From contig JAOMOG010000005.1 in assembly GCA_028353405.1 (NCBI GenBank), positions 13,763-77,762 on the forward strand: DNA of 64,000 nt. Reading direction: 5' to 3'. Shown piece after piece: positions 4,456-64,000 of the stretch (position 1 is the stretch's first letter; each line of letters opens with the position of its first letter). Under the pieces are notes generated by a model. It was not told the origin of the DNA, searched no databases, and saw only the letters and a program-made list of their open reading frames with translations. Both the position numbers and the translations under genes were made by a program. The DNA comes from Candidatus Poseidoniaceae archaeon. GTDB lineage: Archaea; Thermoplasmatota; Poseidoniia; Poseidoniales; Poseidoniaceae.

Positions 4456-6186
4456 ATGCTCGGCACGAAACATATGCGCGCTTTGCTATTGGTGGGCATC
4501 ATGTGTTTGGCCCCATTATCTGGTTGCTTTGGCGAAGAGGATGGGCGTGGTCCACCTGGAATGAATGACGTTGTCATCACTCCAGAAGTTCTGACCGGTG
4601 GTGTATTTCAAGGAATGACTATTTCTGCTGAAGAGGATGTTTCTGTATTCATTCCTTATTTGATTAAAGACACTTCATCAGGGTTTGTATTCAATTCTAC
4701 TGTGGTCGATTTACGCCAGGGTGATTCGGTTCAACTGAATGTTTTAGCGCCGCCAAGAGCTGATTCGGCATTCATCTTTATTGGTGAATTTGGTAGGGAT
4801 AATTGGCCTATTAGAGAAATTAATGAATCTTGGGCAACTTGGATTGCTGAAGATGGGCATCTTAGTGCAGACCGTGGTGCTGTGATGAGTATTGGTAGTG
4901 AAAATATTACATTCAATAGTAGCCAAGAAACAGGAGGTGCTGTCGCCTATTATCCACTCACTGTAGCAAGAGAAATCGCTCCGGGGTATTCAGAAGAAGA
5001 GGGTGGCCGTCATTCTACTGGTGTAGTTAATGGCCGGACAACTTACAATTTTCTAAGTCATCTTACCGACCAAACCCCAGACCCTTCTGATTTGTCGGAT
5101 GGTGCTGTTGGTTATCTAGACAGGTGGGCGGGTCAAGGAAATGGTGCTTACGAAGCTGGTGCGGTTTACTTACAAGATCAATTAGAATCGTTTGGTTTGG
5201 ATGTTGTTACTCAGCGTTATGCATTCACCGATATATTCGAAAATCAAAATCCAGAAGCATACAATATCTGTGGATTTAGATATGGTAGTGAATTCCCTGA
5301 TGAGTGGATGGTGTTTGGCGCTCACTTTGACGTCGCCCCTCCTGCTAACGCACTACTGCTAGACCCTCACGTCACCGGTGTGCGAACATATGGAACGCGT
5401 GTTGGCGCATATGACAACACCGCTGGCACCAGTATGGTATTGACCGTCGCTGAAGCGATGGCGAATTACGAGACGCGTAGAACAATGGTATTCTGCCTAT
5501 GGTCTGGAGAAGAGGGTGGCAAGAGAGGTAGTGATTATTGGACTGATTATTATGTTAAGGAAGATAATCCAGATGTCGTTGTTACAAATTATGTCAATCT
5601 CGATATGGCTGGAGTAAACTGGCCTGGTGGCGGTGGTGCACCGCACTCAGATCCCAATCCTACTGTTGACCCAGATGGTTATCCAAAGGATGAGGAAGTT
5701 TGGCCAATGCGAGTCTATATTGGACCTTCTGATGACCATACGCAACTAATGCAACCTGAGATGGTTGGCCTTGCTATGTGGATTGGTTCTGATGCTATTG
5801 GTGTTGAACAACAGCAATCTGTGCTAGTAGGTACTGGTTTTGAAGCAGACACTTGGAAGGTTGATGATTGGTTGGCAAGAGATCGACCTGAGATAATTGT
5901 CTATGAAGATTCTACTGCACGAAGTGACCATGCATCATTCCAGGATAATCTACAAACTGTTACTATGGGGTTCGGTGGATTGGTCGATGGTTATTGGTGC
6001 TATCATCAAACATGTGATACTTTGGATGAGATGGAGCAATGGATGGACACCACTGACAAAGGATATGGTGAAGACAATAGTGGTGTATCAAATTTGGTGG
6101 ACAGTCTTGACATTATTGTATGGTGGGCAACATACTCTTTCTTCCACCTAGATCAAGACCCTGTGGTCAATTCTTATTTGCTTTAG
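4456..6186 (+). CDS. M28-family metallo-aminopeptidase, predicted lipoprotein (tandem paralogue)
   Basis: Lipobox-like APLSGC. Same motif set as 2481..4103: GAHFD, GAYDNTAGTSMVL, WSGEEGGKRGS, NLDMAG, ARSDHASF. Alternative start at 4474. Confidence 0.7.
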   Translation: MLGTKHMRALLLVGIMCLAPLSGCFGEEDGRGPPGMNDVVITPEVLTGGVFQGMTISAEEDVSVFIPYLIKDTSSGFVFNSTVVDLRQGDSVQLNVLAPPRADSAFIFIGEFGRDNWPIREINESWATWIAEDGHLSADRGAVMSIGSENITFNSSQETGGAVAYYPLTVAREIAPGYSEEEGGRHSTGVVNGRTTYNFLSHLTDQTPDPSDLSDGAVGYLDRWAGQGNGAYEAGAVYLQDQLESFGLDVVTQRYAFTDIFENQNPEAYNICGFRYGSEFPDEWMVFGAHFDVAPPANALLLDPHVTGVRTYGTRVGAYDNTAGTSMVLTVAEAMANYETRRTMVFCLWSGEEGGKRGSDYWTDYYVKEDNPDVVVTNYVNLDMAGVNWPGGGGAPHSDPNPTVDPDGYPKDEEVWPMRVYIGPSDDHTQLMQPEMVGLAMWIGSDAIGVEQQQSVLVGTGFEADTWKVDDWLARDRPEIIVYEDSTARSDHASFQDNLQTVTMGFGGLVDGYWCYHQTCDTLDEMEQWMDTTDKGYGEDNSGVSNLVDSLDIIVWWATYSFFHLDQDPVVNSYLL

Positions 6187-7151
6187 AAGTAAGCTGCAAT
6201 GTTTTGCAATAATGGTTTAGGCCCCCAAAAACCCATGAACCAGCCTACCACTGGTATTGCAAAAATCGCTAATACAAAATAGAATACTTGTTCGTTCCAA
6301 TCCTTTACTTTCAATCCGTCAAGAGGGCCCCATGGAATCATATTGAACAGCCCTAGTAACAAGTTTGCCGCTAGCCAAAAATAGCCAATATCAAAAATCA
6401 TCGCTTGCCAATTCAATGAACCATTAACCAAGTACGAATAATCCTTTAATTCTGCTGAACCAGTTAACCCTATTACCGCACCCCAAAGTGGAACTCCGAT
6501 GATAAATAGAGATAGATTGACTAGAGGTCCTGCAACTGCAATGTGACCATTTTGTCTTCTTGTAACTAAACCAGCAACCATAACTGCGCCAGGCGCCATA
6601 AATACAATTCCAAGAAGTGCTGCCACTAAAACGCCGTTTCTCAAACCTCTTGGATCTGCCCTAAACTCTGCCCAGCAACCATTCTTTTTAGCTACTATTT
6701 TGTGACCTATTTCGTGTAGTAAGAAAGCCGGTCCTATCGCCAAGAACATTACGGGCATAGCGAGTAATAATCCTATAATCCATAGAGTCATTCCAGTTTG
6801 AGAAATAGAAAAGATTCCGCCAACTCTCATGAAGCCTAATGCTAGAGTGAAGGCGCCCATTGCAAATGCTAAATGGCTTCTTTCTGTTTTACTAAAGTGC
6901 CAAATCCTGCCATCGTGCATAGTTGCAGGTTTCTGCTGAATGCCACTCAGTAATTGATTCAACATTCCACCTATGTTTCCAGAATTGGTATCGAAATGAA
7001 TTGTTCCATCATTTCCTTGACGTTGATGGATACGGTGGATTCTGGCTTTCTGTGGACGAGAAAATGGGTCGTCGTCGACCAGATTTGCTCGGTCGTCTCG
7101 TGTGCCCATATCTCCGAAGTGTCGCCGCTGTGCTTTGAAGCCTCTCATCAT
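6183..7151 (-). CDS. M50-family site-2 protease-like membrane metalloprotease
   Basis: HEIGHKIVAKK (HExxH) lies inside a TM segment. A downstream NMIPWGPLDG resembles the LDG third-ligand motif. Multi-TM. Confidence 0.7.
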   Translation of the reverse strand: MMRGFKAQRRHFGDMGTRDDRANLVDDDPFSRPQKARIHRIHQRQGNDGTIHFDTNSGNIGGMLNQLLSGIQQKPATMHDGRIWHFSKTERSHLAFAMGAFTLALGFMRVGGIFSISQTGMTLWIIGLLLAMPVMFLAIGPAFLLHEIGHKIVAKKNGCWAEFRADPRGLRNGVLVAALLGIVFMAPGAVMVAGLVTRRQNGHIAVAGPLVNLSLFIIGVPLWGAVIGLTGSAELKDYSYLVNGSLNWQAMIFDIGYFWLAANLLLGLFNMIPWGPLDGLKVKDWNEQVFYFVLAIFAIPVVGWFMGFWGPKPLLQNIAAYF

Positions 7152-7906: not shown

Positions 7907-8011
7907 TCTGTTTTATTGTATATTGTTTAATTGTTTATCAAAAAGAATTAATATTATTTGTTTTTTGAAAAGTTAAAGCCTTTAATTGGGTTGTGTAAAC
8001 TCTCCTTAAAA

Positions 8012-8788
8012 TTAAATGATTTTGTTATTGGGTTCAAAGGAAATTTCTCCTTTGTGAAGTGTATATGATATCCGCTGTGTGCCCTTTCCTTTGGATTTCT
8101 TACCAATAATTTCTATATGGCCAATCTCACCTAGTTGCTTGACATGTGTCCCAGCACATGGGCACAAATCAAGAGAATCACCGATTTTTACAACTCTTAA
8201 ATTATTGATAGAAGCAGGTAATAAATCCATGTTTGTTCGCTCTGGCGGCATTAGAGCATTAATTTCTGATCGTGTCATTTCTTCATCACTAACTGTGTGA
8301 TTTTCGTCGATTAAATCGTTGGTTAATTGGGTGAGTTGTTGTAACATTTCTTCATCGAATTTAATTGGGTTAAAATCAATTCTTGACCTTTCGGTATGAA
8401 TTTGATTACCTACTGTTCTAGCTGCATTAAAATTATCATATACAACTCCGCTAACCAAATGTTGGGCTGTATGCATGCGCATGTGTTCATATCTTCTGTG
8501 CCAGTCTATTTTACCTGTGATTTCGTCACCGACTTCCAATTGGTGGCCTTTTTCCAAATGGTGGTAAATATCATCGCGACCTCTTACTTCACTAACCGGT
8601 AGTGTCCCATTTGGACCATCCAGTGTTCCTGTATCCCAATTTTGTCCACCACCAAGTGGATAGAATAACGTTCTATCGAGAACTACTTTATCTTCTTCTG
8701 CAATGGTGACCTGGGCTGCAAAATTGGTTAAATATCCCGCTTCTATGTCCTCAAGGAATAGTTTCTCACTGCCCATGGTTTTATCCAA
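8012..8788 (-). CDS. alaX: AlaX-type alanyl-tRNA editing protein
   Basis: HTAQHL (HxxxH) and CPCAGTH (CxxxH), the zinc motifs of the AlaRS/ThrRS second additional (editing) domain. The ~258 aa size fits AlaX-M. Confidence 0.75.
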   Translation of the reverse strand: MDKTMGSEKLFLEDIEAGYLTNFAAQVTIAEEDKVVLDRTLFYPLGGGQNWDTGTLDGPNGTLPVSEVRGRDDIYHHLEKGHQLEVGDEITGKIDWHRRYEHMRMHTAQHLVSGVVYDNFNAARTVGNQIHTERSRIDFNPIKFDEEMLQQLTQLTNDLIDENHTVSDEEMTRSEINALMPPERTNMDLLPASINNLRVVKIGDSLDLCPCAGTHVKQLGEIGHIEIIGKKSKGKGTQRISYTLHKGEISFEPNNKII

Positions 8789-13041: not shown

Positions 13042-13830
13042 TTAAGTCCAGGTGCTTAATAATTCCACTACCTGCTTTAATGCAGCTAGTAGAAGCACAG
13101 AAACCAATAATCTACGAACGGTCTGTTGTGATAAAACATCAGCACCAACTTTTGCACCAAACACCCCACCAACAATTACAGCCATGCTAAATGGTAACAA
13201 AACTGCAACATCAAGAACTATTTGTCCAGAAAGGGTGCTACCGATCAATCCAGCTGCAGAATTTAACCAGATGAAAGCAGCGGCAACTCCAGCAGTAGTT
13301 TTCACATCACCCCAGCCAAATAACAAGATAATTGGTGAAAGGAAAATTCCACCACCAATTCCAATAATTCCACTTAATAAACCAATAATCAATCCGACAA
13401 TTGCAGCAATATGATGAGCCGGCGGTTCAACAAAAATATCTTCTGAATCTTTGTTTTTTATTGTCATCAACCGCCATGCTGCGAAGATTAAAGTCAGCGA
13501 TAATAAAGTGTCATATATACTATGATCAACCTTTAGATAACCACCAATTATCGCTGCTGGTATACTGGTAACGAGGAATGGAAGAGTTAACTTCCAACTG
13601 AAGTAACCTGAACGTTTGTATGCAATAAATGCAAGTCCAGCGACTATTAAATTCAAACTCCAAGCGTGCTGTTTTAGCCAAGCCGAATCTTGGGAAGCGT
13701 AGGCGGTGAGTGATAAAATCGCCAAATAACCTGAAGCCCCACCATGACCAACACTCGCGTAAAGAAAAGCTACCAAACAAAGCGCTATGAGGAGAAGGCC
13801 TGTTGTAAACACCTCCATACCCCTTCCCAA
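13042..13830 (-). CDS. TauE/SafE-family anion exporter-like membrane protein (second copy)
   Basis: 262 aa, multi-TM, with GHGGASGYL and IGIGGGIFLSPIIL motifs typical of the family. Confidence 0.6.
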   Translation of the reverse strand: MGRGMEVFTTGLLLIALCLVAFLYASVGHGGASGYLAILSLTAYASQDSAWLKQHAWSLNLIVAGLAFIAYKRSGYFSWKLTLPFLVTSIPAAIIGGYLKVDHSIYDTLLSLTLIFAAWRLMTIKNKDSEDIFVEPPAHHIAAIVGLIIGLLSGIIGIGGGIFLSPIILLFGWGDVKTTAGVAAAFIWLNSAAGLIGSTLSGQIVLDVAVLLPFSMAVIVGGVFGAKVGADVLSQQTVRRLLVSVLLLAALKQVVELLSTWT

Positions 13831-51990: not shown

Positions 51991-52319
51991 TCTCTAATTT
52001 CAGATTTATCTTCGCTTCTACGCACGCGTATTACGCCGATGAAAACTGCACCAATTACCGACAAGGTCATGATATTTGCAGCAACCATAGCAAAAGAATC
52101 TACAAGAATTCCATAAATTAGCCACATGGTTAGAGCGATTGCGACTACAGCAAATGTTGTTAGAGACAAACCATCATGACGTTTGTGAACCCATACTTGG
52201 ATGATTTGTGGAATCCAAGCAATAATTCCAATAACGCCGGCTAACAAGCCAAGTGCCTCAACCATCATAGTAGCCATGGGCGATGCCAATAGCCCAACCC
52301 AAATCAAACCTTGTCTCAC
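51981..52319 (-). CDS. PQ-loop / SemiSWEET-like 3-TM protein
   Basis: 112 aa, three TM helices, PQ motif (AWIPQIIQVW). Confidence 0.5.
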   Translation of the reverse strand: MRQGLIWVGLLASPMATMMVEALGLLAGVIGIIAWIPQIIQVWVHKRHDGLSLTTFAVVAIALTMWLIYGILVDSFAMVAANIMTLSVIGAVFIGVIRVRRSEDKSEIRDQL

Positions 52320-53260
52320 TTAGATCTTGGTTTCTCGCCCCATTCTGCGGGTGGCCTTGCAGCAAATACTTTGTTTACAGTGGCCCAATCTACCAATCGT
52401 CTTTCCTTTTCTCCTACAACATGCATTTCCAAGCATAAATCCTTTGCTAAAGTCGCTTCAATATTTTTTGTTCCATGAGATAATTTGACCCGACTTGGTC
52501 TTTTATTGAAGATAGAAAAGAAACCACGTCGATGAGTTGTTTGCACATTCAAATCTTCTTTTCGAAGCTTGAACCAATCATCTACGTCTGAACCTAATCC
52601 CAGTTGAATCAAATCTCCTTTCAAAGTTAATCCCCCATGTAATTCAATCTCATCCCAAGTTGAAAACCCTTCAACTGTTTGTAGGAGATCTTCATTCAAT
52701 TCACCAGGGATAGTCGACTCTAATATTTTTATAAAATCTGTTTCATTAACCATTTCCTGCTTAAAATTCTTAGGGATTTTTGGCCATTCTAGCCTTTGAT
52801 GAGTCATTGCAACGATGACTCTAACCTCTATGCTATCCGTTTGTTTTTGATTGATTCTCTGATGATGAATTTCGTTCAACATTCTCGCCTTTCTAGCGAT
52901 TCTCTCAGCGACCGTACTATGGTTGTGTTCGCTACCATTATTACGATATTGAACAAATTCTTCATCACTATTAATCTCAAATCTTCCAGCCCAATGTTTC
53001 TGTTCTACCACCAGAAGGGTATTGCCTCCAACGATAACCAAGTCAATTTCCCTTCTCCCTCCATCAGCAGGATCTGGAATGCGCACAGATGCAAAAACAT
53101 GCCACCCGTTTGCCTTTCCAGCAGCACGAGATAGTTTTTCTAAACGTAATTCAGACAATTCACCAGCGCGATGAGTATCGTCTGGAGGGTGCTTTTTACA
53201 GCGCGTTCTCCACCAATTAAATTGCTGTAGAAACGACAAAATAATCCCCCATAAAATCAT
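52316..53260 (-). CDS. NERD (nuclease-related domain) protein with uncharacterised C-terminal half
   Basis: RAGELSE...L....GWHVFASVRIP...REIDLVIVGGNTLLVVEQKHWAG fits the NERD pattern (E...D...ExK, PD-(D/E)xK-like). The N-terminal segment is hydrophobic. Confidence 0.55.
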   Translation of the reverse strand: MILWGIILSFLQQFNWWRTRCKKHPPDDTHRAGELSELRLEKLSRAAGKANGWHVFASVRIPDPADGGRREIDLVIVGGNTLLVVEQKHWAGRFEINSDEEFVQYRNNGSEHNHSTVAERIARKARMLNEIHHQRINQKQTDSIEVRVIVAMTHQRLEWPKIPKNFKQEMVNETDFIKILESTIPGELNEDLLQTVEGFSTWDEIELHGGLTLKGDLIQLGLGSDVDDWFKLRKEDLNVQTTHRRGFFSIFNKRPSRVKLSHGTKNIEATLAKDLCLEMHVVGEKERRLVDWATVNKVFAARPPAEWGEKPRSK

Positions 53261-55452: not shown

Positions 55453-55551
55453 TCACTCCTTGAGGCTATTTGTTGGCAACTATGGTAGAGGGAGATAATC
55501 CAACCTTCATTTTGATGCCATAGACTGGCTTTATCAAAAGCACTCATCAAT

Positions 55552-56469
55552 TCAAAATGGCAATTCTTTATCGAGTCTCTCAGTCATCTCAAGATATCTA
55601 TCAGTATGTTCAGTATTTGGTAAATTGATAACAAATTGCCAATAACGCCATGCGGCAATTGAAAGAGTTGCCAAACGATGTAAGGCTGGTAAAGCATTAA
55701 TTTCAGCATCATTCAATTTCCTTATCGACTGATATCCAGATAGTAAAGAATCCCAGCGTTCAGATACCGGTTGACCATTTTCCCAACCAAATCCAACAAA
55801 TGTCATAACCAAATCGAAAGCCAAGACATCATAACATATTTCTTCAAAATCAAGTAATGATTTGACCTTTTCTTTAGTTCCGATGACATTATCGGGAAAT
55901 AAATCTCCGTGTATTATTCCCTTCGGCAAATCTTGACCTATGCTCTCAGCTAGTAGAGTGTTCTCAGTTTGTAGCATATTTAGAAAATCAGTCCAGCCAT
56001 GAGTTTCGTTTGCGATTGAAAATAATTTCTCAAAAAGGGTATTACCCATTGAGAAATTACTCTTTAGGCCCTTAGGGGGTTTTAGCAGATGTAAATTGGC
56101 TTGGATCATGCCAAGTGAGTATAGTGACGAATGATTGGATTCTAGCCACTGTCCTTCTACAAAGGGCAGAAGTGTCCATGCTAAGCCATCTTTAATCATC
56201 ATTAATTCACCATTCTTAAATTTGATAGGAGTGGCAGTCGGGACTCCATTATTAGCCAAATAAGATGTCATCGTTAGTAAATATTCAACTTCTTCTAGCG
56301 ATTGTTCATTCCATATCTTCAATACTAGTTTAGTATTATCTTTTAGAGTCAAAATGTAGTTGGAATTAGCCCAGCCTCCTGCTAATTTTTCAATACTAAG
56401 TAATTCTGACAGACCTGTGGCTTCAACAATCGCTGAAGCGTCATCAAGTGATACTTCTGTGTAAGCCAT
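55552..56469 (-). CDS. aminoglycoside phosphotransferase-fold kinase (homoserine kinase type II-like); its 5' 173 nt lie inside the left direct repeat
   Basis: IIHGDLFPDNV (Brenner HxDxxxxN) and LLDFEE (DFG-equivalent). 305 aa. Confidence 0.7.
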   Translation of the reverse strand: MAYTEVSLDDASAIVEATGLSELLSIEKLAGGWANSNYILTLKDNTKLVLKIWNEQSLEEVEYLLTMTSYLANNGVPTATPIKFKNGELMMIKDGLAWTLLPFVEGQWLESNHSSLYSLGMIQANLHLLKPPKGLKSNFSMGNTLFEKLFSIANETHGWTDFLNMLQTENTLLAESIGQDLPKGIIHGDLFPDNVIGTKEKVKSLLDFEEICYDVLAFDLVMTFVGFGWENGQPVSERWDSLLSGYQSIRKLNDAEINALPALHRLATLSIAAWRYWQFVINLPNTEHTDRYLEMTERLDKELPF

Positions 56470-56538
56470 ATAGTGCCCCTAACTCAATTTCTTTTTCTTT
56501 TTATCTATTGGATACGCCGATATTTACAGAGATGAACC
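56297..56538. repeat. left copy of 242-bp direct repeat (kinase gene 5' end plus upstream region)
   Basis: Aligned by eye with 62584..62825 at a constant offset of 6287 nt. In 56297-56470 there is one mismatch (56377 T vs 62664 C, synonymous Gly). Positions 56471-56538 are ~75-80% identical with two 1-nt indels. Confidence 0.9.
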
Positions 56539-56720
56539 TTTCTTGCTATGGGTGCCCCCTGAGTCAAACCACATAAAACAGAGGTAAAATGACTTTTTGC
56601 CGAATTGAATTCTTTAAAAGGAGTGATGTATTGTGGAGTTTTAGAGGGACAGGCCCATCCTAAAATAGAAACTTGAAAACACTACCCATTGTTTGAGATA
56701 TCAGAAAATACTAGATTATT

Positions 56721-59402
56721 ATGTCAATTGAAGTAACACTATTCGGGTCCGAGAAAAGGGCCATTCCGCATGGCATTAGTTTGTCTACGCTGCACCACAT
56801 GTGTGCGATAAGGGCAAGGATGTGTTGGGGTCTCTGGAACGAAGGATATCCGATTGCCAGAGTCTTAGACCACTATCCCTCCGGCGAGGAATATACTGTT
56901 ATTCTAGATCATGACTCTCACGCCCGCATCATCAAAAAAGATTTTGCTAGAATTCGTTTAACTGAATTTGACTACCCCAGGCCAACTGAATTAGCGACAT
57001 TTTTGATTGATTTGTTGAGATTGGAAAAAACAGGATTAATAGGTCGTTTCAGCATTTCTTATTCCCAATATGATTTCAGTTTTGAACGGGATAAATATAT
57101 AGGTATCCGTTATGTTTTAATTCCCGATTTAAGTGACATACAAGAAGACTCTGTTGAATTGACTGATCTGTTATCTCTTGCAAAGATAGCAGCAAAGATT
57201 TGTCTGCCTAATCAGGTCAATTCATTCTCGCGATGTAAATCTATTGGAGAGATTCTATCTCTGATTGCAGGTTTGACCTTTCGTAAAGACAATACAACTG
57301 GGGCCGGTAAATTGATTATCAATCTTGATGAGGAAAATCACTCCATGTGGGTTGGATATAACAGCGAGAGATTTAGAATCCGAGCCAATCAACATGGCTA
57401 TTTTATACCGTCAAAGAAGCCTGATCCCAAAGCACATGGTATCGAAATCCCGATTCAAATTTCCCCATATCCCGACCCTAATCTTGTGAATCCTTGGATT
57501 GAAAGAGCGCTTTGTTGGCAAGGGAAAACAAAAATCTGGAATGAGGGTAGTTCTGATGGTACTATTCGCAACTTGGTCGGAACGCTTGCAGCTGAATTTC
57601 GTCATGCTGAAAATTCCTGCTACAAATATGAGGTCGAATCTAATTATGATCTCAAGAAGGGGATTGCCACCATTAGAATCGAGCGTCGTGATGGGAATGC
57701 CAATGCGCATGATTTGTGGGAAGCAGCGGTACGTAACAGAGAAATGGATGTCGCTTTGAATTCATCCGAACGCGTATTTGAATGGAAAGATGGTGATATT
57801 TGGAAGTTGGAAAAAATCCACGAAAAAGATCCGTTCCTTCTAACGATTAAGTCCTCTCCAAAGAACGCCAAATTATCAGATTCAGGATATCTGAAACTGG
57901 CGAGTGTCCCGCAGAGGGCATTGATGACGAGGAAGGAGAAACTAATCAGGTCGGGAGTACGAAAAGAATCGATACGAAACCTACTTCAGCTACAGGTCAA
58001 TACGAGAAATTCGGATGAATGGAGATTGTCTCAAAGACGTAACATCATGGCTCTTCAGGGACCACCTGGGACTGGAAAAACATGGACCGCCTGTCAGATT
58101 GTCAAAGATATTCTCAGGGAAAACCCCTGTGCTAGGATTTTGGTAAGTTCAAAGGAACATCTAGCTCTTGATCATCTTTCGAACCGCATCCGAGAAGCAT
58201 TGGACAATTCTTTTGACGTAGTTCGAATTAATCATCGTGAATCTGATGTAGAACGCGACATTGATTCAGAGGTTTTGCCTGAAGCCATCACCAATCGAAT
58301 CCTCAAGGATATCTCAATTTCCGAGAAGAATATGCGAGAAATCGGTAAGTTGGCTACATGGGTTGAGGACTTGGCTACTCGAACAGCCTCCGTTGTTTGC
58401 ACCACTACCTTAGACCGTACGATGGAGAATTTACAACGTTCTGGCGAGACATTTGATTTCACAATCATAGAAGAAGCAGGGAAATCCTACCCTTCTGAGT
58501 TGATTGGCCCCGTGTCTATTTCAATGAACACCCTGATAATTGGTGACCATCTTCAACTCCCGCCATTTGAATTGCGTGAAATACAGAAAGCGATTGAAGA
58601 TTGTATCAATGATGGGTTGAATAATTGGGATGACCGAGACTTCAGAAATAGTATTGAACGTGAATTGGTAGAGGTGTCAACACACCATGCGAAGCGTAAA
58701 GAATTCAATCCAACTAGTATTTCTGATCAGATTGAAGCATGGCTTCAGCCCTTCCAAACAATTCATATGATTACCAAGGGAGATGTACTCTCCAATCAAT
58801 GGCGGATGTTCCAATCACTATCCGATTCAGTTGGTGAGATATTCTATGGAAAGTCATTCTCCATAAAGAAAATAAATAGTGTTGAGGATGATCAACTACC
58901 AGGTGTCTTTGGAGAATATGCTGAGAGACTTCTAATGGCGGATATTCCAAACGGTACAGAGAGTAATCGCACCAAATCATATTGCAACAAGGCCGAAGCC
59001 AAGTTTGCCGCCAAGCATCTTGAGGAACTTCTCAACAGTGGATGTGATGCCATCGCCATTACTCCATACAAGGGGCAAGTTGATGAAATTCGTGAAAATC
59101 TCCCGAAGAAATATCGCGACAATGTCAGAACAGTAGACGGTTTCCAAGGAAAGGAAGCAGATTTTATTCTCCTCAGTCTTGTACGCAGCAACAAGCGTAC
59201 AGGATCATCCCGGAGATGGGGTTTCTTCCGTGACCCCCGCCGAATCAACGTAGCCCTATCTCGCGCTAGAGAAGGGCTTGTTGTGATTTCATCCATAGAT
59301 CATATCGAGAATACTGATTGGGCGGAGGATGAAGGGCAACTATCAGAGTTCCTTGAATCGGTTCGTAATCAAGGAAAAATAATTCAGGAGGTGAAAAATT
59401 GA
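56721..59402 (+). CDS. Upf1-like SF1B helicase (COG1112-type core) with 446-aa unrecognised N-terminal region
   Basis: Walker A GPPGTGKT (58059-58082, aa 447-454); Ia ILVSSKEHLALDHL; II IIEEAGK; III GDHLQLPP (58542-58565); V TVDGFQGKEADFILLSLVRSN; VI DPRRINVALSRAREGLVVIS. The motifs are near-canonical Upf1/DNA2/NAM7. Confidence 0.85.
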   Translation: MSIEVTLFGSEKRAIPHGISLSTLHHMCAIRARMCWGLWNEGYPIARVLDHYPSGEEYTVILDHDSHARIIKKDFARIRLTEFDYPRPTELATFLIDLLRLEKTGLIGRFSISYSQYDFSFERDKYIGIRYVLIPDLSDIQEDSVELTDLLSLAKIAAKICLPNQVNSFSRCKSIGEILSLIAGLTFRKDNTTGAGKLIINLDEENHSMWVGYNSERFRIRANQHGYFIPSKKPDPKAHGIEIPIQISPYPDPNLVNPWIERALCWQGKTKIWNEGSSDGTIRNLVGTLAAEFRHAENSCYKYEVESNYDLKKGIATIRIERRDGNANAHDLWEAAVRNREMDVALNSSERVFEWKDGDIWKLEKIHEKDPFLLTIKSSPKNAKLSDSGYLKLASVPQRALMTRKEKLIRSGVRKESIRNLLQLQVNTRNSDEWRLSQRRNIMALQGPPGTGKTWTACQIVKDILRENPCARILVSSKEHLALDHLSNRIREALDNSFDVVRINHRESDVERDIDSEVLPEAITNRILKDISISEKNMREIGKLATWVEDLATRTASVVCTTTLDRTMENLQRSGETFDFTIIEEAGKSYPSELIGPVSISMNTLIIGDHLQLPPFELREIQKAIEDCINDGLNNWDDRDFRNSIERELVEVSTHHAKRKEFNPTSISDQIEAWLQPFQTIHMITKGDVLSNQWRMFQSLSDSVGEIFYGKSFSIKKINSVEDDQLPGVFGEYAERLLMADIPNGTESNRTKSYCNKAEAKFAAKHLEELLNSGCDAIAITPYKGQVDEIRENLPKKYRDNVRTVDGFQGKEADFILLSLVRSNKRTGSSRRWGFFRDPRRINVALSRAREGLVVISSIDHIENTDWAEDEGQLSEFLESVRNQGKIIQEVKN

Positions 59403-62233
59403 GTGGGGCTAGCATTATTCTCGAGATTCCAGTAGAGATTCTGCACACTGTTTTCAGAGTGGAGAAAGATGACCCTCTAAAACCAATCATGGATGTCATG
59501 AAATCAAACAAGATGATTGAATCAAACTCACAATCAGTGCATCGATTAGATGCACTCTCTCGATCATCTTCATCAATCTCCAAGATTAATGAATTCCCCA
59601 CACCTGTAATGAGGGATTTATGGAAAGGAAAATATTGGACAATGAGGGAAAAAAGCCTCAGTCTTGATAGTGATATTACGGGTTCTATACATCAATTAGA
59701 GCCGATTCAAAGGTTAGATCTGAATAAACATGAAGGTAAAGTCAAGGATATGGCCGCCCCGTTTCTGGGATGGTTAGCAGGCAAATCACAAATAAATAGA
59801 AAGGATATTCTGAGTCATGTGCGACTTGAGAGTTTGGAGACATTTGGTGAAACCATCTTTTTGAGAACAAAGATATCGCAGAAAGAAGACCGAGCAGGGC
59901 GAAAATTCTGGGTCTATGAAGAAGGGCCTTTTAAGCAATTGATAGGAGATTATATTGATCAAGTACCCGGCTTTGAAATCGATGAGCGGAATGCGACAGA
60001 AAAGATGCATGAGTGGCCATATTCCCCCGAGGTAATGGCTCTTAGAGAACTTAGAAAGAAGGTTAAATTGTCCAAAATTTCAGATGCTAAATTGAGGGGG
60101 AATAAGAATAATTTACAATTAAAGAAAAAGTCTACCAAAGACCAAAATGTAGTTCTTAAAGAGGCAAAAAGTATTCTAAAATCTATCATGGACCAAATAA
60201 ATGAAGATATGCGCCCCCGCCTCAATGAGGTGAAACAAATAGTTGGGTTTCGCCAGGATATGTGGGACGCTGCACAAGTGGTCATCAACTCGGCGGAGAG
60301 GCGAGTATTTGTTCTAACTTCGTTCAGTAACAAAAAATTCTTAGGAGATGTGGCAGATATGTTGGCGGAGGCTTCTGAAAGGAGTAGCCCTGAAATCCTA
60401 CTATCCTTCGGTGAGCCCGACCGTGGCCGTTCTCCAGAGGACATTGAAAAGACGAATCGATATATCTCTACTCTATCTAAGGATAAACGACTCAATTTGA
60501 AAGGTGGAGTTTCTGCGATTCCCACTCATTCCAAGATAATCGTATCCGACACAGGTATGATTTTCCTCTGTTCATGTAACCTTTTTAGCGGTTCTTTTGA
60601 TTCCGGTGTTCTCGAATCGGGACTATTAATCAAGGATGCAGAATGTGCAAGAACACTTATTGAAGCAGTAGATGATGAAAGATGGGTCCCTGAAACTATT
60701 AAAAAACAGTTTGGAGAGTTGTTTTCGCGAATCAAGGATATCAAGGACGACAAATATGGGCTTTTTGAATTAGGAAACAAAATTTCCGAAATAAAAACAA
60801 ATATCAATAAAGGTGAAATTTGGTATGCAATTCCTAAGTTAGAGCGAATGTTATTGGAGATTTCAGAAAGACCGACTTGGTCGTTGATTAGAACACTTGA
60901 GCACCGCCCATTTATGGCGGATTGCATCAAGAAATTCGAGGATCGTTTGGTTATGGGGAGCGATGGATTGAGAAGTAATGGTTTAGATAAAGAATCTATC
61001 AGCGGGATTGTCAAACGTGCATCTAAGAATAATGCTACAGTTCAAATTTGGTGGGGTCGGCATGCACCAAAATCGAAAAGTTATGACGAGGCTGATGCTA
61101 GGGGCAGAAAAGAAGCAAAGAACCGCCTAGAACAATTAAGAGGCCACAAAGGATTATTCTTGATTCCAAGAACTTCCAATGAACCAATGGAAACACATGC
61201 TAAGATGTTTATTGTTGATGATTTAAGGCTGATGATTACTTCGGATAATACACTCTCATTCGGCGATACAGAAACAGAAAGAGGCGATGCGGGTGAATTA
61301 GGAATCGTGGTTGATCACCCGCGATTGGCCATCCAAACAAGAGGTTGTATGGAATTATGGCTTCCAGACGATGCTGTGGTCCCACGAGATAACACGAAAT
61401 GGTGGTCTCTTCTCGGCGAAGGGGTAGGCATGCAAACAGATAATCCGTTTCAAAAAGTTCCACTTATCAATACATTAGATTCGCTGATTGAACGAGTCGA
61501 ATCTAGTAACTTCTTGAAGTCTCGTTGGGAAAGAGAAGTAGAATCCGGTTCGAATGAGATTGAAATATTGAATAAATTGACATTAGGTAATAAATTCGGA
61601 ATTTATTCCATCGCTGAATCCGTGAACTCAGCAGGAAACAAATCACGCTTGTCTGAGGAACAAATAGAAGAAGCTGTGATATCCTTGGCAAAGAAGAAAA
61701 GATGGAATATATCAATCGATGATTCGATTGATAATGCATTGATATCTGCACTAAGCCAATATAAATCAAAGTCTGGAAAACGTCCACATTTCATAATACA
61801 AGGTGGAAGGAATTACGAATTATCTTACAAATCTAAAGAATTACATATGCAATTTGATGAAGATTTTGTTTTACCATATCTAATAAAACACCGAGAGGAA
61901 GTCATCGATGAGTTAAATTCTCTTTTCGGATTCGAAATTGAAGTTTCATGGAGCCTCACAAGCAGTGGTAAAATGATGAATGATTTCTCCAACGCATTCA
62001 GCATCGAGGAAGAAATTACCCCGAAAATATGGGCGGAATCCCTTATTCAATTCATGAATGATCCAGATATTTTTGAATTCATTTCTGACCCATATAATCG
62101 AATGGTTACATCGGAACCTAAATTAAAACTCGGTAAAGGTGAGTTGGCCATATTTGTGGATGAGGAGTGCTATGAGTTCATTGAATGGGAGAAGCGAAAG
62201 GGTCAATTGTATGTACGAAGGAGGAGGGAATGA
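59399..62233 (+). CDS. double-HKD phospholipase-D-superfamily protein (predicted nuclease) with large extra N- and C-terminal regions
   Basis: HKD-1 HSKIIVSD...CSCNLFSG (60527-60550, aa 377). HKD-2 HAKMFIVDD...ITSDNTLSFG (61196-61219, aa 600). No TM segments. TTG start overlaps the helicase TGA (TTGA). GGAGGTGA at 59387-59394. Confidence 0.8.
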   Translation: MSGASIILEIPVEILHTVFRVEKDDPLKPIMDVMKSNKMIESNSQSVHRLDALSRSSSSISKINEFPTPVMRDLWKGKYWTMREKSLSLDSDITGSIHQLEPIQRLDLNKHEGKVKDMAAPFLGWLAGKSQINRKDILSHVRLESLETFGETIFLRTKISQKEDRAGRKFWVYEEGPFKQLIGDYIDQVPGFEIDERNATEKMHEWPYSPEVMALRELRKKVKLSKISDAKLRGNKNNLQLKKKSTKDQNVVLKEAKSILKSIMDQINEDMRPRLNEVKQIVGFRQDMWDAAQVVINSAERRVFVLTSFSNKKFLGDVADMLAEASERSSPEILLSFGEPDRGRSPEDIEKTNRYISTLSKDKRLNLKGGVSAIPTHSKIIVSDTGMIFLCSCNLFSGSFDSGVLESGLLIKDAECARTLIEAVDDERWVPETIKKQFGELFSRIKDIKDDKYGLFELGNKISEIKTNINKGEIWYAIPKLERMLLEISERPTWSLIRTLEHRPFMADCIKKFEDRLVMGSDGLRSNGLDKESISGIVKRASKNNATVQIWWGRHAPKSKSYDEADARGRKEAKNRLEQLRGHKGLFLIPRTSNEPMETHAKMFIVDDLRLMITSDNTLSFGDTETERGDAGELGIVVDHPRLAIQTRGCMELWLPDDAVVPRDNTKWWSLLGEGVGMQTDNPFQKVPLINTLDSLIERVESSNFLKSRWEREVESGSNEIEILNKLTLGNKFGIYSIAESVNSAGNKSRLSEEQIEEAVISLAKKKRWNISIDDSIDNALISALSQYKSKSGKRPHFIIQGGRNYELSYKSKELHMQFDEDFVLPYLIKHREEVIDELNSLFGFEIEVSWSLTSSGKMMNDFSNAFSIEEEITPKIWAESLIQFMNDPDIFEFISDPYNRMVTSEPKLKLGKGELAIFVDEECYEFIEWEKRKGQLYVRRRRE

Positions 62234-62574
62234 TGTCAAGAGGTTCGGGCAAAGGGGGATCATCGCGTGGTCGAGGAAATTCGCGAAGACAGTCAATGTC
62301 CAAATCGCAAAAAGACCAACGATCTAATAGTATGAATCCCAACAACAATACCAACAAAAGTGGAAATGATAATCGTTCCAATCAGATGAATCCGAACAAC
62401 CCTGCTCACGATTCTTCAAGGCAATCCTCTACAAGTTCAGGTCGATGGAGTCAGAGAATGGATGCGAAGAGTGCATCACGAATTCAAACTCACGCTGATA
62501 AAACCGACACAAATCAAGATTTCAAGGCTAGAGCACAATCTGCAGCTGAAAAGAATGAAGATGAAAATAGTTGA
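62233..62574 (+). CDS. small basic Asn/Ser-rich low-complexity protein
   Basis: MSRGSGKGGSSRGRGNSRR..., two RSNxMNPNN motifs, and a C-terminal ASRIQTHADK...ARAQSAAEKN. TGATG overlap with the PLD gene stop. GGAGG at 62223-62227. Alternative ATG at 62230. Confidence 0.5.
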   Translation: MSRGSGKGGSSRGRGNSRRQSMSKSQKDQRSNSMNPNNNTNKSGNDNRSNQMNPNNPAHDSSRQSSTSSGRWSQRMDAKSASRIQTHADKTDTNQDFKARAQSAAEKNEDENS

Positions 62575-62583
62575 TGAAGCTTC

Positions 62584-62756
62584 AGCGATTGTTCATTCCA
62601 TATCTTCAATACTAGTTTAGTATTATCTTTTAGAGTCAAAATGTAGTTGGAATTAGCCCAGCCCCCTGCTAATTTTTCAATACTAAGTAATTCTGACAGA
62701 CCTGTGGCTTCAACAATCGCTGAAGCGTCATCAAGTGATACTTCTGTGTAAGCCAT
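62584..62756 (-). pseudogene. orphaned 5' fragment (58 codons) of the kinase-fold gene, still carrying its start codon and upstream region
   Basis: The predicted peptide MAYTEVSLDD...KIWNEQSL is identical to residues 1-58 of 55552..56469. The frame then reads into island sequence, giving the 80-aa chimeric ORF 62514..62756. Confidence 0.8.
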
Positions 62757-62825
62757 ACAATATCCCTAGTTGCATTTTCTTTTTCTTTTTATCTATTGGA
62801 TATGCTGATATTTCAGAGACGAACC
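62584..62825. repeat. right copy of 242-bp direct repeat
   Basis: See the left copy. It starts 9 nt after the stop codon of the small island gene. Confidence 0.9.
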
Positions 62826-62919
62826 CGCCTTCCAAATCATTTATTTGAATTTAGAATCGCCTTCAAGAGATTTTTTTCCTGCGAAAGAAACAAATGCTAT
62901 CGGGCACGTAGTATACTTC

Positions 62920-64000
62920 ATGAAGAAGAGCATATTATTGAGCTTGCTATTATTAATGTCTGTATTTGTGGGTTGTCTTGGCGATAATGACCCGGTTCTT
63001 GGAATCGGTGGTCAAGTCGATGGCTCTAAAGAGGGCGGAACCTTTAATTGCACTCTACCAAACACAATTTCGACATTCCAATTGGGAACTATTGATGACT
63101 GGGATCCTAATATCGCAGAGTCTCCATTGCCCAATGTTCCTACTAACCTAATGGGAATTGTATTTGTGTCGAAAGATACCGACAGTGTATTTAACGAAGC
63201 TCCTGTTGTACATCATTTCAGTAATCTTGGCGGACAATTAATTGTTGATGCCAAGATAACAATTCAGACCCGTACTATTACTGGCATGACTCCGAATTCA
63301 GATATTCTTCAGTTGATGTTCCACAATGATATGAATCTATACCCAACTTGGAATATTCCGATCGGGCAAACAGCAGATTCTCCATATGGTATGACTGAAG
63401 TTCTGCATCTAGATGAGTTACCAACGAGTGGAGCAGGCGACCTATCTACATTAGTCGCTGGCACTACAAGCCTAACTTCAGCACTAAACACACTCGGATA
63501 TATCGACATAGTCGTTTCAAACGCTCAGCAGGTAGATTATGTTGAACTTGAGTTATGTGTTCGACCCCCACCCCCTCCTTCAGGAGGTTCCTTTGATTGC
63601 CCTGCACCGCACTCAAGTTTCAGTTTCTTTTTAGGGACAAATGACAATTGGGACCCTGCTATTGCAGAATCCCCACTACCCATAGTCACCTCAAACCTTT
63701 TGCAAATTGCAACATATACGAAGGGTACTGATGATGATATGAATGAAGCATCAGTTACTCATCAGTTTGGTAGCATAGCGGCATTTATAATTGTAGATGC
63801 CTCATTGACAATCCAAACACGAACAATTCCAACCGAGGCTCCAAATATTGCCAATCTAATTTTATTATTTAGTGATGACATGACGGCATATCCTCCTTGG
63901 GAGATTTCAATTGGACAAGCAGCAGATGCTCCATCAACGCTGACTGAAACATTACATCTTGATGAATTGCCTACAAGTGGAATGGGAGATTTGTCATTAT
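62920..64000 (+). CDS. predicted lipoprotein with tandem ~183-aa repeat domains (3' end beyond window)
   Basis: My own translation; it is absent from the ORF track because no stop falls in the window. MKKSILLSLLLLMSVFVGC is a lipobox. Repeat 1 starts at 63034 (GGTFNCTLPNT...) and repeat 2 at 63583 (GGSFDCPAPHS...). Shared motifs: WDPxIAESPLP, TIQTRTI, LHLDELPTSG. Confidence 0.6.
   Translation, partial: MKKSILLSLLLLMSVFVGCLGDNDPVLGIGGQVDGSKEGGTFNCTLPNTISTFQLGTIDDWDPNIAESPLPNVPTNLMGIVFVSKDTDSVFNEAPVVHHFSNLGGQLIVDAKITIQTRTITGMTPNSDILQLMFHNDMNLYPTWNIPIGQTADSPYGMTEVLHLDELPTSGAGDLSTLVAGTTSLTSALNTLGYIDIVVSNAQQVDYVELELCVRPPPPPSGGSFDCPAPHSSFSFFLGTNDNWDPAIAESPLPIVTSNLLQIATYTKGTDDDMNEASVTHQFGSIAAFIIVDASLTIQTRTIPTEAPNIANLILLFSDDMTAYPPWEISIGQAADAPSTLTETLHLDELPTSGMGDLSL

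What the first reader, a model, noticed from the sequence alone, without database searches (positions are those of the whole stretch)
56297..62825. Integrase-less island flanked by a 242-bp direct repeat that duplicates the 5' end and promoter region of the target gene
Positions 56297-56538 and 62584-62825 align at a fixed 6287-nt offset. The 174 nt covering codons 1-58 of the kinase-fold gene differ at one synonymous position. The ~68 nt upstream of the ATG are only ~75-80% identical, with two indels.

The intact gene (55552-56469) therefore uses a 5' end and upstream region that arrived with the insert. The original 5' end and promoter are stranded at 62584-62825. This is the signature of an element that integrates into a gene and carries a replacement end, here from a related but non-identical donor.

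I find no integrase, transposase, terminal inverted repeats or tRNA target between the repeats. Possible routes are trans-mobilisation, loss of the recombinase, or homologous-recombination-driven exchange of a defence cassette between strains.
Basis: seen in the sequence. Interest (0 to 1): 0.7.

Follow-up and report, generated by a model that had tools for sequence, protein, structure and literature searches.

The report
Defence cassette inserted by recombination, archaeon
A 6-kb, three-gene anti-virus (Mokosh-type) cassette was spliced into one strain of an uncultured marine archaeon by one homologous crossover and one illegitimate joint. This duplicated 247 bp of a kinase gene and swapped its promoter region, and the cassette belongs to a mobile family that has fixed ends but no recombinase gene of its own.

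Summary
The repeat is real. 56297-56538 and 62584-62825 differ at 1 of 173 coding bases and are about 82% identical upstream.

The window is a Marine Group II (Poseidoniales) archaeal chromosome. Ten public contigs from at least 8 samples encode the identical kinase. They match both flanks at 98-99.5%, and all are empty sites with the kinase 199 nt from the lipoprotein gene.

The insert holds a Upf1-like helicase (MkoA), a PLD nuclease (MkoB) and a conserved 114-129-aa RG-rich protein. At least 20 related cassettes sit in unrelated flanks with sharp common ends (attP core CAGTGAC-TA-CCCTCTG). None carries a recombinase or a kinase fragment.

In the window the cassette has lost its 83-nt right-end tail. 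It is joined to kinase nt 173 by a microhomology-templated junction. The left junction is a homologous crossover between -2 and +54 of the kinase gene.

Best reading: a one-off Campbell-type or homology-facilitated illegitimate insertion from a related lineage, not a gene-targeting element. An assembly path switch in the 93-nt exact repeat cannot be excluded without reads.

The parts
55552..56469 (-). Intact APH-family kinase gene (305 aa), resembling type II homoserine kinase. It is the target gene.
   Evidence: Pfam APH 3.9e-27. NCBIfam homoserine kinase models reach 1e-44, below their cut-offs. The identical protein occurs on 19 public contigs. All informative coding sites match the native empty-site haplotype.
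56292..56538 (.). Left copy of the duplicated 247-bp target. It covers kinase nt 1-177 and 69 nt upstream.
   Evidence: Window 56538-50138 equals L051 9932-16332 at 99.5%. Repeat found.
56470..56552 (-). Foreign upstream allele now serving the intact kinase gene. It is a mosaic. 56515-56552 matches the L061 allele at all informative sites but one (56518). 56471-56514 follows L001 at 14 of 15 informative sites (56476 is private). The core promoter block (-50 to -20) is invariant in all alleles.
   Evidence: Alignment A3 and the site-by-site table. Homology to L001 and L061 runs 13 nt beyond the repeat.
56546..56570 (+). attL-like left junction of the cassette: CTATGGG-TG-CCCCCTGAGTCAAACC.
   Evidence: The same left terminus (...TA-CCCTCTGAGTCAAACC) occurs in at least 15 unrelated flanks. 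The empty counterpart in L002 reads CTACTGG-TC-CGCTGATAGAAT.
56553..62579 (+). Mokosh-type three-gene cassette, truncated at its right end (the 83-nt tail is missing). GC 41.0% against 42.7% for the window.
   Evidence: 96.3% identical to L061 over 55500-62580. 77-85% identical to about 20 further loci, with homology starting at 56543-56560 and stopping at 62575-62580. GC.
56721..59402 (+). MkoA-like Upf1-type SF1 helicase (893 aa). The Walker A motif GPPGTGKT is present. The N-terminal ~300 aa are of unknown fold.
   Evidence: Pfam AAA_11 and AAA_12. PADLOC MkoA 9.3e-101. PDB Upf1/NAM7 5e-26. The N-terminus has no Pfam hit and its AlphaFold2 model has pLDDT 40.7.
59399..62233 (+). MkoB-like PLD-family nuclease (944 aa) with two HxKxxxxD motifs (HSKIIVSD, HAKMFIVD). 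Its start overlaps the MkoA stop.
   Evidence: Pfam PLDc_2 1.6e-7. PADLOC MkoB 1.8e-21. Sequence. Downstream of about 60030 it is the most divergent part of the cassette.
62185..62574 (+). Third gene, a small basic Ser/Asn/Arg/Gly-rich protein. The ORF is 129 aa, and homologues of 113-115 aa suggest a start near 62230.
   Evidence: Present after MkoB in every related cassette. 69 homologues, none in Pfam. Substitutions are concentrated at third codon positions, for example 6:2:26.
62571..62593 (.). Illegitimate right junction J1: TTGATGAAGC (cassette end) + TTC + AGCGATTGTT (kinase antisense, nt 173-164).
   Evidence: The 23-mer equals kinase sense nt 23-45 at 22/23. Only 2 of 6021 cassette positions offer a 10-mer matching TTGATGACGC at 9/10 or better, and the breakpoint is one of them. 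The 10-nt inverted repeat (nt 36-45 and 164-173) exists in native and L001 kinase genes but not in L002 or L061. See also repeat I1.
62584..62756 (-). Stub: kinase codons 1-58. Its ORF continues to 62514, antisense to the 3' end of the third gene.
   Evidence: Its one difference from the native sequence is G at +93 (about 62664), the L001 allele.
62757..62826 (-). Native kinase upstream and promoter region, now stranded on the stub.
   Evidence: Seven of the eight empty-site contigs aligned carry exactly this sequence; the eighth (L059) differs at 1-2 bases.
62920..64000 (+). 5' part of the divergent lipoprotein gene (signal peptide with VGC lipobox). This is native flank.
   Evidence: Translation. 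Window 64000-62580 equals L051 8757-10178 at 98.0%, and the matching stretch of L055 at 99.4%. The product is 1083 aa in L051.

Best explanation
The insert is a horizontally acquired, apparently intact three-gene Mokosh-type defence cassette. It encodes a Upf1-like helicase (MkoA), a PLD nuclease (MkoB) and a small RG-rich protein.

The cassette belongs to a family that moves among Marine Group II archaeal genomes through defined att-like ends, using a recombinase it does not encode. In this strain it did not arrive by that normal route. The local att site had decayed.

DNA from a related lineage already carried the cassette next to its own kinase gene. That DNA was captured through two junctions:
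(i) A homologous crossover in the highly conserved first ~55-95 nt of the kinase gene.
(ii) An illegitimate, microhomology-templated joint between the cassette, truncated 6 nt after the stop codon of its third gene, and kinase nt 173.

Topologically the simplest path has two steps. First, a fragment [kinase +173..-82 | cassette] circularises by snap-back end joining. Then it integrates Campbell-style by a single crossover. This necessarily duplicates the shared 247 bp.

Consequences: the intact kinase gene now reads from a donor-type upstream region whose core promoter block is unchanged. The native promoter and 58 codons are stranded as a stub that points antisense into the 3' end of the cassette.

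Shown: the insertion polymorphism, which copy is native, the cargo, the common ends of the family, the truncation, and the anatomy of the junction.
Inferred: the circular intermediate, the order of events, and defence activity.
For: - Empty sites: the identical kinase protein is found on 19 contigs. The 10 shown, from at least 8 samples, all have the kinase next to the lipoprotein gene. They match the window at 98-99.5% on both flanks, with L051 9932-10178 present twice in the window.
- The stub upstream equals the native sequence. The upstream of the intact gene is a foreign mosaic of L061-like and L001-like alleles, and the coding sequence is native from +54 onward.
- Cargo identified.
- Family: 27 metagenome loci and further contigs carry the same three genes, with homology starting at 56543-56560 and ending at 62575-62580. 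In most loci whose right flank is held, an 83-nt tail follows that the window lacks.
- Recent mobility: the L079 and L080 cassettes are 99.74% identical over 5829 bp in unrelated flanks.
- Canonical insertion at this very locus is seen in L061, with L002 as the empty counterpart.
- In L001 the lipoprotein gene segment ends with the same right-end motif against the same flank. The native haplotype has deleted that attR.
- The stub carries the L001-type G at +93 while the intact copy has the native A. This is the reciprocal pattern expected of a single crossover.
Against: - The reciprocal pattern rests on one fourfold-degenerate, hypervariable site. At +54 both copies are native, which needs either a donor with A there or a conversion tract.
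- The exact donor haplotype was not found.
- J1, and the exact MkoA, MkoB and stub proteins, are in no other public assembly searched. The structure therefore rests on one assembly.
- An assembler switching paths inside the 93-nt exact repeat would give the same crossover pattern.
- No circular form was seen.
- Homologous plus illegitimate recombination of linear DNA usually deletes rather than duplicates.
Confidence: 0.6

Rival explanations
1. Linear-DNA route with no circular intermediate. This would be homology-facilitated illegitimate recombination, or double-strand-break repair with template switching. The kinase 5' region anchors donor DNA by homology. The other end is joined at kinase nt 173 by snap-back, synthesis-dependent microhomology end joining, possibly across sister chromatids or a replication fork. 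The stub is entirely native and the G at +93 is a later neutral mutation.
For: - There is one homologous and one microhomology junction.
- Apart from +93 the stub is identical to native.
- +93 is a fourfold-degenerate site that varies A/G/T/C among lineages.
- At +54 both copies are native, so no conversion tract is needed.
- Homology-facilitated illegitimate recombination is documented in bacteria (PMC3240628) and has been invoked for stub-leaving displacement of toxin modules (PMC5361080).
Against: - Integration of a linear fragment with the illegitimate joint on the 'wrong' side of the homologous anchor does not give a duplication on one chromatid. It needs two templates.
- It requires an extra mutation that happens to match the L001 allele.
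Confidence: 0.22
2. Assembly chimera. J1 is real, but the molecule carrying it was merged with the abundant empty-site chromosome by path switching in the 93-nt exact repeat. That molecule would be a free or excised circle, or an integrated copy in another strain. The flanks shown in the window would then not belong to the island.
For: - Both apparent crossovers fall within the single longest exact shared stretch, 93 nt. This is longer than the default metaSPAdes k.
- Empty-site genomes are common in many samples.
- The island-bearing haplotype is not found elsewhere.
Against: - J1 shares only 7-10 nt with any other local sequence, so it cannot be a graph artefact.
- The upstream mosaic switches between alleles within 12 nt or less and has private SNPs, so it is a real haplotype.
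- A 93-nt repeat is shorter than a 150-nt read or k = 127-141.
- A non-replicating circle would rarely reach assembly coverage.
- If the island is integrated in another strain, the direct repeat is still real.
Confidence: 0.12
3. One reading: a dedicated integrative element whose attachment site lies in the kinase gene. It carries a replacement 5' end, like prophages that restore tRNA or icd gene ends, and it has lost its integrase.
For: A direct repeat of the gene end flanks the island, with a diverged element-side copy.
Against: - No other member of the cassette family carries kinase sequence. Where both flanks are held and unique they differ from locus to locus, and the ends are TA-centred att-like sites.
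- The closest relatives, L061 and L099, have the full tail.
- The window copy is truncated.
- The junction lies inside the gene at a microhomology, not at a conserved core.
- No integrase remnant is present.
Confidence: 0.04

Closest known systems
Type I Mokosh anti-phage system (MkoA + MkoB; Millman et al., bioRxiv 10.1101/2022.05.11.491447)
   Same: Two adjacent co-oriented genes: a COG1112/Upf1-like SF1 helicase with an intact Walker A motif, and a PLD-family nuclease with HKD motifs. PADLOC MkoA scores 9e-101 and MkoB 1.8e-21.
   Different: - The host is archaeal (Poseidoniales).
- The N-terminal ~300 aa of MkoA do not match the N-terminal ~460 positions of the PADLOC MkoA model, where I assume the Ser/Thr-kinase domain of type I MkoA lies. 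They match no Pfam family.
- MkoB is 944 aa with two HKD motifs and a long unannotated C-terminus.
- A third, conserved RG-rich small protein is always present.
- Defence activity is untested.
Campbell-type (single-crossover) integration of a circle carrying a chromosomal fragment, as with suicide plasmids or aberrantly excised specialised transducing phages
   Same: The insert is flanked by a direct duplication of exactly the shared segment. Each copy is a hybrid of donor and recipient alleles. No site-specific recombinase is needed.
   Different: - It is a natural event in an uncultured archaeon.
- The circle is inferred, not observed.
- Its closure junction is a snap-back microhomology joint.
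- The shared segment is only about 250 bp.
Homology-facilitated illegitimate recombination (de Vries & Wackernagel 2002; Prudhomme et al. 2002; see PMC3240628 and PMC5361080)
   Same: One end of the foreign DNA is anchored by homology. The other is joined at a short microhomology. A fragment of the resident gene is left as an orphan stub.
   Different: It is described for transformable bacteria and for conjugation. It usually yields deletions or replacements rather than a duplication. It is not documented in Marine Group II archaea.
Prophages and islands that carry a replacement gene end (e14 and phage 21 in icd; tRNA-targeting integrases). From my own knowledge.
   Same: The gene end is duplicated, with an element-borne variant restoring the gene.
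   Different: Those elements encode an integrase, always carry the fragment, and replace the 3' end. Here there is no integrase, the fragment is unique to this copy, and it is the 5' end and promoter.
Integron gene cassettes, including archaeal integrons (PMC9668308)
   Same: For the cassette family: recombinase-less cassettes with a structured 85-105-nt right-end module. Insertion occurs next to the end of a previous cassette (L069, L068). The cargo is diverse: a defence system, a lipoprotein and another unknown.
   Different: - The crossover is at a TA between CAGTGAC and CCCTCTG, not at G|TTRRRY.
- There is no R''/R' attC signature, no Rfam hit and no IntI nearby.
- The cassettes are 6 kb with three genes and their own promoter.
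- The text search for Poseidoniales, Thermoplasmatota and Marine Group II in the archaeal integron survey found no mention.

Membership tests
Mokosh type I defence system | MkoA: Upf1-like (COG1112) SF1 helicase with an ATP-binding motif | tested here: met
   Pfam AAA_11 9e-23 and AAA_12 2.8e-38. PADLOC MkoA 9.3e-101. PDB Upf1/NAM7 5e-26. GPPGTGKT is in the sequence.
Mokosh type I defence system | MkoB: PLD-family nuclease with an HKD catalytic motif, encoded next to MkoA | tested here: met
   Pfam PLDc_2 1.6e-7. PADLOC MkoB 1.8e-21. HSKIIVSD and HAKMFIVD are in the sequence. The genes overlap by 4 nt.
Mokosh type I defence system | Ser/Thr-kinase domain in the helicase protein (Millman et al.) | tested here: inconclusive
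   The N-terminal 420 aa give no Pfam hit better than E = 0.14. The PADLOC model aligns only from residue 297. The AlphaFold2 model is unusable at pLDDT 40.7.
Mokosh type I defence system | Protects against viruses, dependent on the helicase and PLD active sites | not testable with these tools
   Needs expression and infection assays.
Integrase-bearing integrative element with a replacement gene end | Encodes a tyrosine or serine integrase, or a remnant of one | tested here: not met
   No recombinase family appears in Pfam, NCBIfam or PADLOC for any of the three proteins or their unannotated parts. There is none in the ±10 kb annotation of L051, nor in the 20 ORFs of window 1526-38254 that were scanned.
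Integrase-bearing integrative element with a replacement gene end | The gene fragment is a constant part of the element in its other copies | tested here: not met
   tblastn with the kinase N-terminus finds no second copy in 27 cassette loci. Right ends carry a conserved tail instead.
Campbell-type single-crossover insertion | The insert is flanked by a direct duplication of the shared homologous segment, absent from empty sites | tested here: met
   L051 9932-10178 is present once in 10 empty sites and twice in the window.
Campbell-type single-crossover insertion | Reciprocal hybrid copies (donor/recipient and recipient/donor) with one common switch point | tested here: inconclusive
   The upstream sites and +93 are reciprocal. 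+54 is native in both copies. Only one coding site is informative.
Campbell-type single-crossover insertion | Existence of the circular intermediate | not testable with these tools
   No reads are available. Searches of viral contigs for the canonical attP junction of the cassette family and for its left end found nothing; no search for the J1-bearing circle was possible.
Homology-facilitated illegitimate recombination | One homologous junction and one junction at short microhomology | tested here: met
   The left switch lies between 56471 and 56416 within 99.5%-identical sequence. J1 has a 9/10 microhomology, a templated TTC and a 10-nt inverted repeat.
Integron cassette / attC | attC with RYYYAAC...GTTRRRY and crossover at G|TT; IntI integrase | tested here: not met
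   The ends read ...CAGTGAC-TA | CCCTCTGAGTC.... No Rfam match. No integrase in flanking ORFs.
DNA transposon / insertion sequence | Transposase, terminal inverted repeats, target-site duplication of fixed short length | tested here: not met
   No transposase. No terminal inverted repeats. The L079 and L080 flanks show no duplication beyond the shared TA(C).

The most novel reading that the evidence does not exclude
Marine Group II archaea may possess a previously undescribed integron-like cassette system. Multi-gene cassettes would carry their own promoters and an 85-105-nt right-end module. They would be inserted by an unlinked, unidentified site-specific recombinase at a TA flanked by inverted CARWGGG half-sites (ideal site CAGAGGG-TA-CCCTCTG). 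Cargo seen so far: Mokosh-type defence, large surface lipoproteins, and at least one other type.

The system would build small arrays and hypervariable hotspots such as the AsnC-regulator/kinase intergenic site. The window would show both an unoccupied site (169-184) and a cassette that escaped into an att-less strain by homologous plus illegitimate recombination.
Probability: 0.35. Interest if true: 0.75.

Novelty: new variant of a known kind. Interest (0 to 1): 0.5.

Why it matters
Marine Group II archaea are among the most abundant planktonic archaea. They have no cultured representative and little is known about their mobile elements or immunity.

This locus gives a rare case resolved to the base pair, with natural empty, alternative-cargo and canonical-insertion controls. 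It shows how a complete defence system moves between lineages that are only about 93% identical. A very short conserved stretch of a housekeeping gene served as the anchor, and a microhomology joint closed the other side.

It also shows that such an event can silently exchange the promoter region of a core gene. It leaves an active-looking promoter firing antisense into the new defence operon.

The cassette family has fixed ends and a near-palindromic att core but no recombinase. It is a concrete, testable lead to an unknown recombination system that shapes the flexible genome of these archaea.

Tried and rejected
- tRNA or tmRNA targets: none in the window or in 25 loci.
- Rfam on three cassette loci at E <= 1: nothing.
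- Single-strand DNA folding of the tail and the left end: not better than shuffles (z = -1.15 and -0.39). The joined attP gave a weak z of -2.4. The left-end hairpin AACAGTG...CACTGTT is not conserved, and no compensatory changes are visible. I therefore dropped an IS200/IS605-type hairpin model.
- Exact look-ups of MkoA, MkoB and the stub ORF: not on record.
- Cassette relatives or the attP junction in viral contigs: none.
- Recombinase in flanking ORFs of 8 loci and in 20 window ORFs: none.
- A search with the MkoA N-terminus gave only 6 fragments. The AlphaFold2 model built from them has pLDDT 40.7 and was not used for fold search.
- MkoB has no PDB sequence relative.
- The L068 144-nt 'terminal inverted repeat' turned out to be the 5' ends of two divergent paralogous lipoprotein genes. 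It is not a transposon end.
- The att-like motifs are not enriched genome-wide in the window.
- A double-strand-break repair model in which the whole left copy was copied from the donor is rejected. The left copy is native at all coding markers.

Full report
**1. Observation**

The repeat finder and MAFFT recover 56297-56502 and 56485-56525 against 62584-62789 and 62773-62813 at an offset of 6287/6288 nt. The coding part, kinase codons 1-58, has one mismatch in 173 nt, at 56377 (GGA versus GGG). The ~70 nt upstream match at 58 of 71 aligned columns, with single-base indels. The right copy is a truncated gene. ORF 62514-62756 (-) encodes kinase residues 1-58 and then 22 residues read antisense through the end of the neighbouring gene. 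The longest exact stretch shared by the two copies is 93 nt.

**2. Organism and locus**

A scan of species-representative genomes with the kinase protein returned only Marine Group II (Poseidoniales) MAGs, apart from two bins labelled bacterial. The best is Ca. Poseidoniaceae ANT-132 (L001), at 99% aa and about 93% nt identity. Other ORFs in the window are ordinary archaeal housekeeping genes: GGGP synthase (PcrB), MoeA, an actin/MreB-like protein and others. The window has no tRNA. The island shows no compositional anomaly, at 41.0% GC against 42.7% for the window.

**3. Empty sites and which copy is native**

The exact kinase protein is encoded on 19 public contigs. The ten shown come from at least eight samples. 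In all of them the kinase lies 199 nt from a divergently transcribed 1083-aa lipoprotein gene, with no island.

These contigs match the window at 98.2-99.5% on the kinase side and 97.8-99.4% on the lipoprotein side. L051 9932-10178 (247 bp) aligns to both window copies. The foreign DNA is therefore about 56539-62579.

In the 12-sequence alignment, the upstream region of the right (stub) copy is identical to seven of the eight empty-site contigs aligned (L059 differs at 1-2 bases). The upstream region of the intact gene is a different allele. The native promoter region is stranded and the working gene reads from imported upstream DNA.

Site by site, the imported allele is a mosaic:
- 56600-56515 follows L061.
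- 56514-56471 follows L001.
- From the ATG onward every informative site is native. The first site that separates L001 from native is at +54.

The block from -50 to -20 (ATCCAATAGATAAAAAGAAAAAGAAA) is the same in every allele aligned except the more distant L002. It probably holds the archaeal TATA element (inference). Both copies therefore probably keep a working core promoter.

**4. Cargo**

- 56721-59402 encodes an 893-aa Upf1-like SF1 helicase. Evidence: Pfam AAA_11 and AAA_12, PADLOC MkoA 9e-101, PDB Upf1/NAM7 5e-26.
- 59399-62233 encodes a 944-aa PLD-family protein with two HxKxxxxD motifs. Evidence: Pfam PLDc_2, PADLOC MkoB 1.8e-21.
- 62185-62574 encodes a basic Ser/Asn/Arg/Gly-rich protein. 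It has 69 homologues and no Pfam family. It follows the PLD gene in every related locus. Its substitutions are concentrated at third codon positions, for example 6:2:26.

This matches type I Mokosh as defined by Millman et al., with two differences. No Ser/Thr-kinase domain is detectable in the helicase N-terminus. A third gene is always present. Defence activity is inferred from family membership only.

**5. The island belongs to a mobile cassette family**

A metagenome scan with the helicase found 27 loci at 77-96% aa identity. Look-ups through the third gene added more. Nucleotide homology to the window begins at 56543-56560 in most loci and stops at 62575-62580 in all of them.

In most loci whose right flank is held the cassette continues for a further ~83 nt (AGAGCAACCC...GCGCAGTGACTAC) before the flanks diverge. 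Where both flanks are held and unique, they differ from locus to locus. They include ribosomal, biosynthetic, lipoprotein and other defence genes.

Nearly identical cassettes sit in unrelated flanks. L079 and L080 are 99.74% identical over 5829 bp, and L073 is 99.1% identical to them. The family has therefore moved recently.

The junctions read:
- attL = [flank] TA CCCTCTGAGTCAAACC...
- attR = ...GCGCAGTGAC TA [flank]

The flank half-sites resemble CARWGGG and CCCWYTG. Several junctions come close to perfect 16-bp palindromes. The attL of L078 is exactly CAGAGGGTACCCTCTG, and those of L068 and L079 differ from it by one base. The attR of L078 is CAGTGACTAGTCACTG.

I infer an attP core of CAGTGAC-TA-CCCTCTG. 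I also infer a site-specific recombinase supplied in trans. None is encoded in the cassette or in the neighbouring ORFs examined.

**6. The same locus in relatives**

The site between the AsnC-type regulator gene and the kinase gene is a hotspot, found in four states:
- L002, L003 and L017 have nothing there.
- L001 and the native haplotype have the lipoprotein gene.
- L061 has the Mokosh cassette in canonical form, tail included, and no lipoprotein gene.
- The window has a truncated cassette, the stub and the lipoprotein gene.

These states are documented. In L001 the lipoprotein segment ends ...TTTTCAGTGCC-TA-GCTCTGTGATTGAAAC. That is the same end motif against the same flank as the attR of L061 (GCGCAGTGAC-TA-GCCCTGTGATTGAAAC). 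The lipoprotein gene therefore looks like an alternative cassette at one attB.

The native haplotype has deleted ~60 nt there, and its left half-site has diverged. The native strain thus had no usable att site (inference).

**7. How the window copy arose**

Only the window lacks the tail. Its closest relatives, L061 (96.3%) and L099 (96.5%), both have it.

The cassette stops 6 nt after the stop codon of the third gene and is fused to kinase nt 173. The junction 23-mer TTGATGAAGC-TTC-AGCGATTGTT equals kinase sense nt 23-45 at 22 of 23 positions. This arises from three features:
- The kinase gene contains a natural 10-nt inverted repeat, at nt 36-45 and nt 164-173.
- The three 'filler' bases TTC are those that precede the repeat arm.
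- The last 10 nt of the cassette match the next 10 kinase bases at 9/10.

Only 2 of 6021 cassette positions offer such a match, and the breakpoint is one of them. The inverted repeat exists in native and L001-type kinase genes but not in L061 or L002.

This is the footprint of snap-back, synthesis-dependent microhomology joining (inference). The 3' end at kinase nt 173 folds onto nt 36-45 and is extended by 13 nt. That extension then pairs with the cassette end.

The other junction is a homologous crossover between -2 and +54. It lies in a stretch that is nearly invariant across lineages.

A single crossover between the chromosome and a circle [kinase +173..-82 | cassette] gives exactly the observed order and the 247-bp duplication. 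It also explains why the stub carries the L001-type G at +93 while the intact gene carries the native A.

The pattern is not fully reciprocal. +54 is native in both copies, and only one coding site is informative. A linear homology-facilitated illegitimate route, with a later mutation at +93, therefore remains a serious alternative.

**8. Assembly caveat**

J1 cannot be a graph artefact, because it shares at most 10 nt with any other local sequence. The mosaic upstream allele has private SNPs and switches between alleles within 12 nt or less. It is therefore a real haplotype.

Both apparent crossovers do lie in the 93-nt exact repeat. An assembler that merged a J1-bearing molecule with the abundant empty chromosome would produce the same picture. 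The island-bearing haplotype was not found in any other assembly. I put this risk at about 0.1. Only reads can settle it.

**9. Comparison with known systems and novelty**

The cargo is a member or variant of Mokosh type I. The insertion works like Campbell-type integration or homology-facilitated illegitimate recombination (PMC3240628, PMC5361080). It resembles replacement-end prophages only superficially.

The cassette family works somewhat like integron cassettes. It fails the attC and IntI criteria. The text search for Poseidoniales, Thermoplasmatota and Marine Group II in the archaeal integron survey found no mention. A survey of 7747 archaeal genomes mentions Mokosh once in its text, as under-represented in Halobacteriota, and does not name Poseidoniales.

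I rate the finding itself as a new variant of known processes, with interest about 0.5. The cassette system with an unknown recombinase is the more novel lead.

Noticed in passing
window 76-184 (site 169-184): A ~105-nt module (...CAATGGGTGTTCAGTCCCTCAGTACACTGGC-TA-CC) recurs in L069 and twice in L072. It always ends at the same TA, with a different continuation each time. In L069 and L072 the Mokosh cassette left end follows directly. In the window it is followed by CCCTTTGATTCC, which looks like an unoccupied att site. This is probably the right-end module of another cassette, cut off by the window start.
   Followed up: partly
window 62920-64000; L001 6763-9815; L051 6416-9801: The large lipoprotein gene (950-1083 aa, only 83% nt identity between L001 and the window) is absent from L002, L003 and L017. 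In L001 it ends with a cassette-type right end (CAGTGCC-TA) at the same attB as the Mokosh cassette of L061. It appears to be an alternative cassette.
   Followed up: partly
window 60030-62200 versus L062-L082: Across the family, MkoA and the first ~210 codons of MkoB stay at 80-85% nt identity, and the third gene at 84-89%. The C-terminal two-thirds of MkoB drop to about 67% or become unalignable. This is a hypervariable module inside a conserved cassette.
   Followed up: no
window 62514-62756 (-) versus 62185-62574 (+): The stranded native kinase promoter points into the 3' end of the third cassette gene. The two ORFs overlap by 61 nt, so the stub may produce antisense RNA against the defence operon.
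   Followed up: no
L068 1-4975 and 7586-13356: This locus holds a second, different helicase / 450-aa / PLD system. It ends with a related tail and the same 30-nt sequence after the crossover point (4938-4972 = 13352-13386). This suggests several cassette types share one att system and can sit in the same island.
   Followed up: partly
L062 71-157 / 6354-6440; L075 27-179 / 7924-8076: Two other cassette loci are also bracketed by direct repeats of flank sequence: 87 nt at 93% identity and 153 nt at 96%. I did not resolve whether these arose like the window's duplication or are local repeats.
   Followed up: no
L092 5102-9377; L102 10001-15147: Copies of the cassette on 0.3-Mb and 1.5-Mb long-read contigs are broken into many short ORFs. 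These are either decayed cassettes or frameshift errors in the assemblies.
   Followed up: no
window 52316-53260 (-): The homologous gene in L051 is annotated as a NERD-domain protein. It sits between the HAD hydrolase and PQ-loop genes, about 3.3 kb from the island.
   Followed up: no
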